DNA of 59,926 bases from a virus. Below the pieces are notes generated by a model. That model was not told the DNA's origin, did no database searches, and was given only the letters and a program-made list of their open reading frames with translations. The translations under genes and the position numbers were made by a program. Location: IMG/VR virus record IMGVR_UViG_3300045988_082950, positions 1 to 59,926 of that record. One strand, 5' to 3'. Shown piece after piece: positions 9,363 to 10,253 of this stretch; positions within the stretch are counted from its first letter, which is position 1; the number at the start of each line of letters is the position of its first letter.

Positions 9363-9937
9363 GTTCTCACTCCTAACTTCAATTCGTTCCCGGACAATTC
9401 GTAAACTGTCTTAGTCCGTCCGTCTTTCTCATACTGCCTTGACTGGAATCTTCCTTTTATAGTAACTGTCTTCCCTGTTGCTAAATTCTTTGCAAATAAA
9501 GCATTTACTGACCACACAATACACGGTATGCAATCCGTTTTTCCATTCTTCCTGGAAGATACCACTAGCAACTCTGCTATGTATCTTCCACTTTGGGTCT
9601 GCCTGAACACTGGTTTTTTGACGATAACACCTGTTATTTCTGTGTGGTTTCCATCTGCTTCAAATACCATTGATATAGATTCTACATGGACAAATAACTC
9701 TAAGTGCGTCCGTTTTCCGTCAAACACCTGTCTACTATGTATAGCACCTGTTATTTTATGCACCGTTCCGTTTTGAATCTGATTTGCAATCCCCTGTTCT
9801 GCGATACATGGAATAATGTCCTCATATCCGCTTAGTCGTCTTACAATCATATGAAAGCTGTAGAATCTGATTTTACCTACCGTGTGGCTGTATGTAGGTT
9901 TTTCATTCATCCTGCCGCATAGCGTTATCCTGTTCAT
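9350..9937 (-). CDS. tandem OB-fold SSB-like protein
   Basis: Two SSB-like OB repeats: MNRITLCGRMNEKPTYSH...IIPCIAEQG... and EITGVIVKKPVFRQTQSGRYIAELLVV...CIPCIVWSVNALFAKNLATGKTVTIKGRFQSRQY. No acidic tail. Start at 9937 or 9910. Confidence 0.7.
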   Translation of the reverse strand: MNRITLCGRMNEKPTYSHTVGKIRFYSFHMIVRRLSGYEDIIPCIAEQGIANQIQNGTVHKITGAIHSRQVFDGKRTHLELFVHVESISMVFEADGNHTEITGVIVKKPVFRQTQSGRYIAELLVVSSRKNGKTDCIPCIVWSVNALFAKNLATGKTVTIKGRFQSRQYEKDGRTKTVYELSGNELKLGVRTWKI

Positions 9938-10253
9938 CTTCCAGCTCCCTTCTGATGTTGAATGCCAGTAGGGAAACAAAACCGCTGTTCGTTTTAAACT
10001 CACTCCCGATATACTTTTTGTAGGTAGGAGTTCTTGAGTCCGCAAGTTCTACTGTGCGTGTTACAACTTTATGAACTGAACCGCCTGTAATTCCATGTTC
10101 AGATGCAATTTCGTCATACATATCCTGTAGTTTCTTTGTCGGATTTATTATCTTTCCTACAGTCAGCTCAACGATATAGTAGAATCCACGCATACTGGGT
10201 TCTATTCCCATAGATATCAAGGCATTCTCAATTTTTCTTAGCCTGTTATCCAT
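9903..10253 (-). CDS. Spo0A C-terminal (DNA-binding) domain-like protein
   Basis: GIEPSMRGFYYIVELT / MYDEIASEHGITGGSVHKVVTRTVE / KTNSGFVSLLAFNIRRE parallel B. subtilis Spo0A GVPAHIKGYLYLREAI / [25 protein letters not shown] / PTNSEFIAMVADKLRLE. There is no receiver domain. Confidence 0.75.
   Translation of the reverse strand: MDNRLRKIENALISMGIEPSMRGFYYIVELTVGKIINPTKKLQDMYDEIASEHGITGGSVHKVVTRTVELADSRTPTYKKYIGSEFKTNSGFVSLLAFNIRRELEDEQDNAMRQDE

What the first reader, a model, noticed from the sequence alone, without database searches (positions are those of the whole stretch)
9903..10253. Phage-encoded stand-alone Spo0A DNA-binding domain in the early operon
The 116-aa product aligns by eye with the C-terminal effector domain of the sporulation master regulator Spo0A. 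The matches cover the helix region GIEPSMRGFYYIVELT, the recognition-helix block MYDEIASEHGITGGSVHKVVTRTVE, and the C-terminal KTNSGFVSLLAFNIRRE. It lacks the phosphoacceptor receiver domain. In Spo0A, removing the receiver yields a constitutively DNA-binding form. A phage copy could therefore occupy 0A boxes and either force or block host sporulation or biofilm decisions regardless of the phosphorelay. It sits early, between the antirepressor and the recombination genes. The same genome also carries a large serine recombinase and a cluster of spore-coat-like low-complexity proteins.
Basis: partly seen in the sequence, partly recalled or inferred. Interest (0 to 1): 0.65.

Follow-up and report, generated by a model that had tools for sequence, protein, structure and literature searches.

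The report
Phage Spo0A-like protein, altered reading head
A gut temperate phage really does encode a small protein with the fold of the DNA-binding half of the sporulation master switch Spo0A, a class already reported in gut phages, but this copy has replaced the residues that read Spo0A's DNA target, so it probably does not simply impersonate Spo0A.

Summary
ORF 9903-10253 (minus strand, 116 aa) matches Pfam Spo0A_C just above threshold (27.7 vs 25 bits). A confident AlphaFold model matches only the Spo0A C-domain structures (TM 0.66-0.79). The protein has no receiver domain and lies in the early operon of a complete circular ~59.9-kb temperate phage, upstream of and overlapping an SSB gene.

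The class is already published: Schwartz et al., mBio 2023, describe truncated phage spo0A with the same hypothesis. The "occupies 0A boxes" inference is weak for this copy. Of 135 distant stand-alone relatives, 103 keep the Spo0A reading triad E213/R214/R217. This protein has H/K/T there. Its HTH net charge is -3, against +4 in Spo0A. The HTH core is a sharply bounded allelic cassette (50-65% nt identity inside 85-100% identical flanks).

Separately, the phage carries two perfect tandem 0A boxes (14019-14035) just upstream of a promoter-like site. They are conserved in 26 of 27 related phages whichever allele is present, so host Spo0A~P is the likelier reader.

Verdict: a real gene and a diverged variant of a known kind. 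Its mechanism is unresolved, most likely a re-specified DNA binder or a Spo0A-pathway interferer. Moderate interest.

The parts
9903..10253 (-). Gene for the 116-aa stand-alone Spo0A_C-fold protein
   Evidence: ORF. Pfam Spo0A_C 27.7 bits, E=2.9e-6. AF2 pLDDT 89 with six helices. Foldseek finds only Spo0A-C chains, TM 0.66-0.79.
9994..10204 (-). Variable HTH-core cassette (about codons 17-87, helices B to E)
   Evidence: Nucleotide identity to L004/L005 falls to 50-66% here, while both flanks are 85-100% identical. The only large allele-specific k-mer block within +-7 kb is this one.
10047..10085 (-). Recognition helix (residues 57-69, GSVHKVVTRTVEL), equivalent to Spo0A 209-221
   Evidence: Alignments. 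E213->H, R214->K, R217->T, H218->R. The distant family keeps E/R/R in 121/116/123 of 135.
10260..10264 (-). Shine-Dalgarno GAGGA, 6 nt upstream of the ATG
   Evidence: Read from the sequence.
10256..10363 (-). 35-aa ORF immediately upstream (2-nt gap), conserved in this position in relatives
   Evidence: Sequence. A 31-36 aa ORF precedes the gene in L001, L003, L004, L029-L032. No Pfam match.
9350..9937 (-). SSB-like gene whose start overlaps the 3' end of the Spo0A_C gene by 35 nt
   Evidence: Pfam SSB E=1.2e-17. The same overlapping pair occurs in every relative and in outgroup P0012.
13146..13174 (-). Early promoter-like site (TTGACA-17-TATTAT with TG) heading the Cro/antirepressor/Spo0A_C/SSB/RecT operon
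   Evidence: 11 of 12 consensus match. No terminator-like site is predicted between it and the gene. Function is inferred.
13168..13638 (+). CI-like HTH repressor gene, divergent from the early operon
   Evidence: Pfam HTH_3. HTH_3 repressor at the same place in relatives.
14019..14035 (-). Two perfect tandem 0A boxes, TGTCGAA-ATT-TGTCGAA, 10 bp start to start
   Evidence: TGNCGAA-N3-TGNCGAA is expected 0.01 times per window. Conserved in 26 of 27 related loci in two spacings (10 or 22 bp). Most variation falls at box position 3; one locus has a G5->A change.
13981..14009 (-). Promoter-like TTGAAT-17-TACAAT, 9 nt downstream of the proximal 0A box
   Evidence: 9 of 12. Conserved with the boxes in relatives. 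Function is inferred.
13640..13869 (-). Perfect consensus promoter (13869-13841), 56-aa ORF (13640-13810) and terminator-like hairpin (13655-13629), downstream of the 0A-box promoter
   Evidence: 12 of 12 promoter match and terminator-like site. ORF. No Pfam family. A 57-aa homologue is called at the same place in L001.

Best explanation
SHOWN:
- The gene encodes a receiver-less protein with the six-helix fold of the Spo0A effector domain.
- It sits in the early operon of a complete, circular, temperate tailed phage from the gut.
- It always lies directly upstream of, and overlaps, an SSB-like gene.
- It belongs to a large family of stand-alone Spo0A_C proteins (331 clusters at 50% identity).
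- Most of that family keeps the Spo0A recognition-helix signature V-E-R-x-I-R-H. This clade has replaced it: the window allele is V-H-K-V-V-T-R, and sister alleles are VEHAVRSA, VTSAIRHA, VTTSIRYA and VESAIIHA.
- The change is confined to a sharply bounded cassette covering the HTH core. The N-terminal helix and the C-terminal helix with its acidic tail (RRELEDEQD) stay nearly invariant.

INFERRED (most likely mechanism):
- The protein is made only after infection or induction, from the CI-controlled early promoter.
- It uses the conserved ends as a constant output or partner surface, and the swapped HTH core as a specificity module.
- With H, K, T and R on the DNA-facing side of the helix, it most likely still binds nucleic acid, but at a target other than the canonical TGTCGAA box. 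It would then be a re-specified regulator acting on phage or host DNA during early lytic development, not a constitutive Spo0A mimic.
- The phage's link to the host sporulation decision more probably runs through the conserved tandem 0A boxes at 14019-14035. The invariant host Spo0A~P would read these to control a promoter next to the lysogeny module.
For: - Fold and homology.
- Phage identity: terminase, portal, major head protein, tape measure and serine integrase. A 55-bp terminal overlap indicates a circular assembly.
- Early-operon position with conserved synteny and SSB overlap.
- Family size and signature. The signature is kept in 103 of 135 distant representatives but in 0 of 12 members of this clade.
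- The helix GSVHK.V.RT is kept within the allele class down to 74% identity (P0005, P0006).
- Cassette boundaries.
- 0A boxes. Both box architectures occur with both protein alleles.
- Base-specific contacts of Spo0A go to G2, C4 and G5 of the box, and the contact residues are conserved from Bacillus to C. difficile (PMC3485338). Most natural variation in the phage boxes is at position 3.
Against: - No DNA target for the protein was found. No second element co-varies with the allele within +-7 kb.
- The other tandem 7-mer pairs are either inside a tRNA gene or identical in phages of both alleles.
- The HTH segment is net negative (-3) and the protein is acidic (pI 5.7), unlike Spo0A (+4, pI 9.3) and unlike the family median (+2). 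That fits loss of DNA binding as well as, or better than, re-specification.
- The assignment of E213/R214/R217 as the base-contacting residues rests on my recollection of Zhao et al. 2002, which I could not retrieve. K at 214 and R at 218 might still allow some binding to 0A-like boxes.
- The host is unidentified, so it is not shown to be a spore former.
Confidence: 0.4

Rival explanations
1. Constitutive Spo0A mimic. The receiver-less domain binds canonical 0A boxes in host and/or phage DNA, independently of the phosphorelay, and forces or blocks sporulation and biofilm decisions.
For: - Spo0A_C fold and profile match.
- The isolated Spo0A DNA-binding domain is known to bind legitimate targets without phosphorylation (PMC3485338).
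- Most family members keep the VERxIRH signature.
- The ancestral occupant of this genomic slot (P0012, helix SRVEKSIRHA) is near-canonical.
- The phage carries conserved perfect 0A boxes.
Against: - This allele has H/K/T at 213/214/217.
- The HTH is net -3.
- The HTH core varies as an allelic cassette among near-identical phages, while the 0A boxes stay canonical and do not co-vary with it.
- There is no overall 0A-box enrichment.
Confidence: 0.15
2. Non-DNA-binding decoy or anti-Spo0A. The protein keeps the Spo0A_C scaffold and its protein-contact surfaces but has lost DNA reading. It interferes with host Spo0A~P, for example by poisoning tandem dimers on DNA, binding the receiver domain or competing for sigma-factor contacts. 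Alternatively it works as a partner of the translationally coupled SSB-like protein through its conserved acidic C-terminal tail.
For: - All three signature residues are lost and the HTH charge is inverted.
- The N- and C-terminal helices and the acidic tail are invariant across alleles.
- The gene overlaps the SSB gene in every relative.
- Diversification of one surface is typical of arms-race proteins.
- The phage appears to be under host Spo0A~P control through its 0A boxes, which gives it a motive to counteract Spo0A during lytic growth.
Against: - The exposed helix residues (H, K, T, R, T) are typical DNA-reading side chains, and they are conserved within the allele class.
- No partner has been identified.
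- I know of no precedent for a Spo0A_C decoy, and the literature searches found none.
Confidence: 0.3
3. Replication or recombination-module accessory. The protein is an origin- or site-binding HTH protein that works with the SSB, SbcC-like ATPase and RecT genes downstream, and is unrelated to sporulation except by ancestry of the fold.
For: - It always sits at the head of the SSB / ATPase / RecT block, not in the lysis-lysogeny switch.
- An iteron-like AGGTTAG x3-4 array with 10-bp period is conserved in this phage group.
Against: - The array is identical in phages carrying different alleles of the protein.
- No replication initiator was identified next to the array.
- No family evidence links Spo0A_C proteins to replication modules.
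Confidence: 0.1

Closest known systems
Phage-carried truncated spo0A homologues of human-gut phages (Schwartz et al., mBio 2023, PMC10294663)
   Same: Phage-borne, effector domain only, no receiver domain, gut origin. BFVD already holds six gut-virome proteins annotated Spo0A_C that match the model at TM 0.63-0.79.
   Different: This protein matches Pfam only marginally (27.7 bits) and lacks the VERAIRH reading signature that most family members keep. Its HTH core is an exchangeable allelic cassette. No member of the class has been tested experimentally in the library I searched.
Spo0A C-terminal effector domain (PDB 1FC3, 1LQ1; Pfam PF08769)
   Same: Six-helix fold with a helix-turn-helix, TM 0.66-0.79, 20-23% identity. 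Conserved scaffold residues include G165, G172, Y175, Y198, I201, A202, T208, V212, G237, the T248-N249-S250 motif, F252 and A257.
   Different: No receiver domain. E213/R214/R217 are replaced by H/K/T. There are deletions of 3 and 6-8 residues, at 191-193 and around 240-245, the latter next to the region I recall as the sigma-A-activating helix. The protein has an acidic HTH and an extra acidic C-terminal tail.
Host-Spo0A control of phage development through 0A boxes in the phage genome (phi29/Nf paradigm; from my knowledge: Meijer et al. 2005, Castilla-Llorente et al. 2006)
   Same: Canonical 0A boxes in a phage genome, conserved across relatives and placed at a promoter.
   Different: The phage here is temperate, and the boxes lie between the late operon and the lysogeny module rather than at early promoters or origins. 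Regulation is inferred only. The phage additionally encodes its own Spo0A_C-like protein.

Membership tests
Spo0A orthologue (TIGR02875 spore_0_A) | N-terminal phosphoacceptor receiver (REC) domain | tested here: not met
   The protein is 116 aa and aligns only to positions 151-256 of the 262-position model. No other Pfam domain was found.
Spo0A orthologue (TIGR02875 spore_0_A) | Score at or above the curated equivalog cutoff (200 bits) | tested here: not met
   17.7 bits.
Spo0A_C domain family (Pfam PF08769) | Profile match at or above the gathering score, over most of the domain | tested here: met
   27.7 bits against 25, E=2.9e-6, profile positions 1-101 of 104. Marginal, but backed by the family profile hitting Spo0A chains first in the PDB.
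Spo0A_C domain family (Pfam PF08769) | Six-helix fold with central helix-turn-helix, superposable on 1FC3/1LQ1 | tested here: met
   AF2 pLDDT 89 with six helices. Foldseek probability 1.00, TM 0.66-0.79 to 7 Spo0A-C chains, and no other hit below E=2.
0A-box-reading Spo0A effector (functional class) | Recognition-helix signature V-E213-R214-x-I-R217-H (base-contacting residues as I recall them from Zhao et al. 2002) | tested here: not met
   The window protein has V-H-K-V-V-T-R. The signature triad is kept in 103 of 135 distant stand-alone relatives and in both PDB Spo0A chains.
0A-box-reading Spo0A effector (functional class) | Sequence-specific binding to TGTCGAA | not testable with these tools
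   Needs EMSA, SELEX or ChIP. Indirect evidence is negative: HTH net charge -3 against +4, and the boxes do not co-vary with the protein allele.
Phage-carried truncated spo0A (Schwartz et al. 2023) | Encoded on a phage genome | tested here: met
   Terminase, portal, major head protein, tape measure and integrase. Circular 59.9-kb assembly. 23 IMG/VR viral contigs carry a relative, 21 of them at 97-100% identity.
Phage-carried truncated spo0A (Schwartz et al. 2023) | Effector domain present and receiver domain absent | tested here: met
Phage-carried truncated spo0A (Schwartz et al. 2023) | Host is an endospore former | tested here: inconclusive
   Host not identified. The only genome hit is an unnamed Hadza gut MAG. 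The nearest terminases are in human-faecal phages and Clostridium phages at 30-47% identity. Conserved 0A boxes suggest a Spo0A-bearing host.

The most novel reading that the evidence does not exclude
The diverged Spo0A_C paralogue is not a mimic but the phage's countermeasure to Spo0A. It would be an allelically diversifying decoy or specificity-swapped antagonist, made early in lytic growth. Together with the conserved tandem 0A boxes read by host Spo0A~P, it would form a two-part circuit. The phage would sense the host's commitment to sporulation through the boxes, and neutralise or redirect it through the protein.
Probability: 0.2. Interest if true: 0.7.

Novelty: new variant of a known kind. 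Interest (0 to 1): 0.45.

Why it matters
Spore formation shapes how gut Firmicutes persist and spread, and phages that tamper with the Spo0A switch could change it. Truncated phage spo0A genes have been catalogued but never tested. This locus offers a compact natural experiment. Near-identical phages differ only in the reading head of the Spo0A-like protein, alongside an ancestral-type relative (P0012) that keeps most of the Spo0A signature. All of them carry canonical tandem 0A boxes. Comparing these alleles would show whether such proteins mimic, antagonise or have left the Spo0A pathway. It also warns against reading 'Spo0A_C domain' annotations in viromes as 'binds 0A boxes'.

Tried and rejected
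- DNA and protein searches of 50,697 GenBank phage records found no relative of the locus or the protein. The terminase gave only distant hits, so host assignment failed.
- The genome-contig scan found one unnamed gut MAG only.
- The whole-window 0A-box count shows no enrichment: 6 found against 5.5 expected for TGTCGAA, and 27 against 21.8 for TGNCGAA. I rejected the idea that the phage is 'full of 0A boxes'.
- I searched for a DNA element that co-varies with the protein allele within +-7 kb. The only large block is the gene's own cassette, plus short linked SNP clusters.
- I enumerated exact 7-mers repeated at 10/11/21/22 bp. The non-coding candidates besides the 0A boxes were:
  - GGCAGAG x2, which turned out to be inside a tRNA gene.
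  - An AGGTTAG array that is identical in both allele backgrounds.
  - A CATTTCT pair at 38817, which I did not follow up.
- 0A boxes in the outgroup contigs L029-L032 showed nothing notable, and the contigs are short.
- I tried to retrieve Zhao et al. 2002 and Hatt & Youngman 2000 for residue-level contact and mutational data. Neither is held. I found only that Spo0A R211E abolishes sporulation and that contacts go to G2, C4 and G5.
- A Markov simulation of box-pair frequency timed out. I used the tool's shuffle estimate instead.
- The 56-aa ORF, the 35-aa ORF and the G/N/C-rich proteins have no Pfam family.

Full report

Yes. An ATG-initiated ORF of 116 codons occupies 9903-10253 on the minus strand. 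A GAGGA Shine-Dalgarno sequence lies 6 nt upstream of the ATG, and the stop codon of a 35-aa ORF lies 2 nt upstream.

- Pfam places the product in Spo0A_C (PF08769) at E=2.9e-6. The score is 27.7 bits against a gathering score of 25, and the match covers profile positions 1-101 of 104.
- The single sequence alone is weak against the PDB (Spo0A chains at E=0.3-0.4). A profile of the protein and 11 close homologues ranks the two Spo0A C-domain entries first, at E=0.008.
- An AlphaFold2 model from that alignment is confident (pLDDT 89, pTM 0.82) and has six helices.
- Foldseek against the PDB returns seven chains of 1FC3/1LQ1 at probability 1.00 and TM 0.66-0.79. Nothing else scores below E=2.
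- There is no receiver domain. The full-length Spo0A model TIGR02875 scores 17.7 bits against a cutoff of 200.

**2. What is the surrounding element?**

The window has a 55-bp exact terminal overlap, so it is a complete circular assembly of about 59.87 kb. It encodes terminase, portal, major head protein, tape measure and a large serine integrase.

The region around the gene is a textbook temperate-phage switch plus early operon:
- a CI-like HTH gene at 13168-13638 (+);
- a divergent strong promoter-like site at 13174-13146 (-);
- Cro/DUF739 at 12870-13094;
- an ORF6N antirepressor at 11368-12183;
- four small ORFs;
- the Spo0A_C gene;
- an SSB-like gene whose start overlaps it by 35 nt;
- an SbcC-like ATPase and RecT.

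No terminator-like site lies between the early promoter and the gene. Expression after induction or infection is therefore inferred.

The same order, including the overlap with SSB, recurs in every relative I fetched. That includes an outgroup from pig- and human-gut contigs.

**3. Is the kind known?**

Yes.
- Schwartz et al. (mBio 2023, PMC10294663) reported that gut phages carry truncated spo0A homologues with the effector domain only. They proposed that these act without the host phosphorelay.
- BFVD already contains gut-virome proteins annotated Spo0A_C that match the model.
- A profile search of 1.84 billion representatives finds 331 clusters, mostly 100-115 aa stand-alone proteins. Some are polypeptides with two to four tandem matches to the domain.
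- I found no experimental test of any of them.

**4. Does this copy look like a 0A-box reader?**

I aligned 135 distant stand-alone representatives with the Spo0A chains.
- The recognition helix reads V-E-R-x-I-R-H/Y almost invariantly. E213 is kept in 121 of 135, R214 in 116 and R217 in 123. All three are kept in 103.
- As I recall from the Spo0A-DNA structure (Zhao et al. 2002), these residues make the base contacts. I could not retrieve that paper.
- An open paper confirms that base-specific contacts go to G2, C4 and G5 of TGTCGAA. It also confirms that all contact residues are conserved from Bacillus to C. difficile (PMC3485338).
- The window protein has H, K and T at these three positions. 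No member of its clade keeps all three.
- Its HTH segment has net charge -3 and the whole protein has pI 5.7. Spo0A has +4 and pI 9.3. The family median for the HTH is +2.

**5. The HTH core is an allelic cassette.**

Against L004 and L005, the upstream flank and the last ~65 nt of the gene plus the downstream flank are 85-100% identical. Between about nt 50 and 260 of the gene, identity drops abruptly to 50-66%.
- At least five recognition-helix variants share nearly identical N-terminal and C-terminal segments (RKIENAL... and ...FNIRRELEDEQD).
- Within the window's allele class the helix is kept down to 74% identity.
- Diversification of the reading head on a constant scaffold is what one expects for a variable target. 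It is not what one expects for the invariant host 0A box.

**6. 0A boxes in the phage.**

The overall count is at chance: 6 found against 5.5 expected. However, two perfect boxes lie in tandem on the minus strand at 14019-14035, as TGTCGAA-ATT-TGTCGAA. The looser pattern TGNCGAA-N3-TGNCGAA is expected only 0.01 times per window.
- The pair starts just after the last late-operon gene. It ends 9 nt upstream of a promoter-like TTGAAT-17-TACAAT.
- Downstream lies a structured ~100-nt leader (z=-3.0).
- Next come a perfect consensus promoter, a 56-aa ORF of unknown family and a terminator-like hairpin abutting the repressor gene.
- In 26 of 27 related loci the element is present, with either 10-bp or 22-bp box spacing.
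- Most sequence variation inside the boxes is T/G at position 3, which is not a contacted base. One locus (L027) instead has G5->A in the distal box.
- Both spacings occur with both protein alleles. The boxes therefore do not track the phage protein. Their most economical reader is host Spo0A~P. That reading is inferred, not shown.

**7. Search for another target.**

- No second allele-specific element exists within +-7 kb.
- Of the non-coding tandem 7-mer pairs, one lies within a second tRNA gene.
- Another is an AGGTTAG x3-4 array, which is identical in both allele backgrounds.
- A third, at 38817, I did not follow up.
- The protein's target remains unknown.

**8. Verdict.**

The specific claim that the protein would occupy 0A boxes is not supported for this allele.

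My ranking of mechanisms:

| Mechanism | Confidence |
|---|---|
| Re-specified nucleic-acid-binding regulator | 0.40 |
| Non-DNA-binding decoy or partner protein | 0.30 |
| Constitutive Spo0A mimic | 0.15 |
| Replication-module accessory | 0.10 |

The kind is already described, and this is a diverged variant of it. Interest is moderate. The allelic series plus the conserved 0A-box promoter make a good experimental system. Nothing here is categorically new.

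Noticed in passing
window 14019-14035 (-), with promoter-like site 14009-13981 (-): Two perfect tandem 0A boxes (TGTCGAA-ATT-TGTCGAA) lie 9 nt upstream of TTGAAT-17-TACAAT, between the late operon and the lysogeny module. They are conserved in 26 of 27 related phages, with 10- or 22-bp spacing and variation mostly at box position 3. 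This looks like a host-Spo0A~P-responsive phage promoter.
   Followed up: yes
window 13640-13869 (-): A moron-like unit: a perfect consensus promoter (TTGACA-17-TATAAT), an RBS, a 56-aa ORF with no family match, and a terminator-like hairpin abutting the 3' end of the CI-like gene. It lies downstream of the 0A-box promoter, and a 57-aa ORF is called at the same place in L001.
   Followed up: partly
window 47683-47752 (+): A full-length type II hammerhead ribozyme (Rfam RF02276, 63.6 bits against gathering score 37, E=6.9e-11) lies between ORFs 47295-47684 and 47715-48014, overlapping the start of the latter, in the accessory region of the phage.
   Followed up: no
window 41465-41534 (-) and 41747-41832 (-): There are two tRNA genes. 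ARAGORN reports tRNA-Ser(GCT) only. Rfam's tRNA model also finds a second gene at 41465-41534 (42.4 bits) that ARAGORN missed. About 210 nt of unassigned sequence lies between them.
   Followed up: partly
window ~44255-44290 (-), flanked by TGTATAC-type palindromes and CGCGTATACGCG: An iteron-like array of three AGGTTA(G/T) units with a 10-bp period (four copies in some relatives). It is conserved in this phage group whichever Spo0A_C allele is present. It may be an origin or a regulatory hub. The neighbouring ORFs have no PHROG function.
   Followed up: partly
window 1-55 and 59872-59926: A 55-bp exact terminal overlap. The window is a complete circular assembly of about 59,871 bp, so all genes in it are phage genes.
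   Followed up: yes
window 53006-53815 (-) and neighbours 51335-52825 (-): A G/N-rich protein with GNGNGN and GGWGGGFGGWG runs and a Cys-rich C-terminus (CGCNTGCGC), with no Pfam family.
   Followed up: partly
P0013, P0019, P0022, P0045, P0047, P0116, P0132: Proteins of 350-470 aa with three or four tandem matches to the Spo0A_C profile and no receiver domain (P0022 shows three clear copies). Many copies have canonical VERA(C/I)RHAIE helices. This architecture could read arrays of 0A boxes.
   Followed up: no
window 49720-50412 (-), 53986-54867 (+), 42344-42934 (-), 129-971 (-): A second ORF6N antirepressor-like gene, two HNH endonuclease genes and a radical-SAM-like gene lie in the accessory and early regions.
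   Followed up: no
L031 8235-8671: A related phage carries a metallo-beta-lactamase-fold gene with a weak Anti-Pycsar Apyc1 hit, downstream of the RecT block.
   Followed up: no
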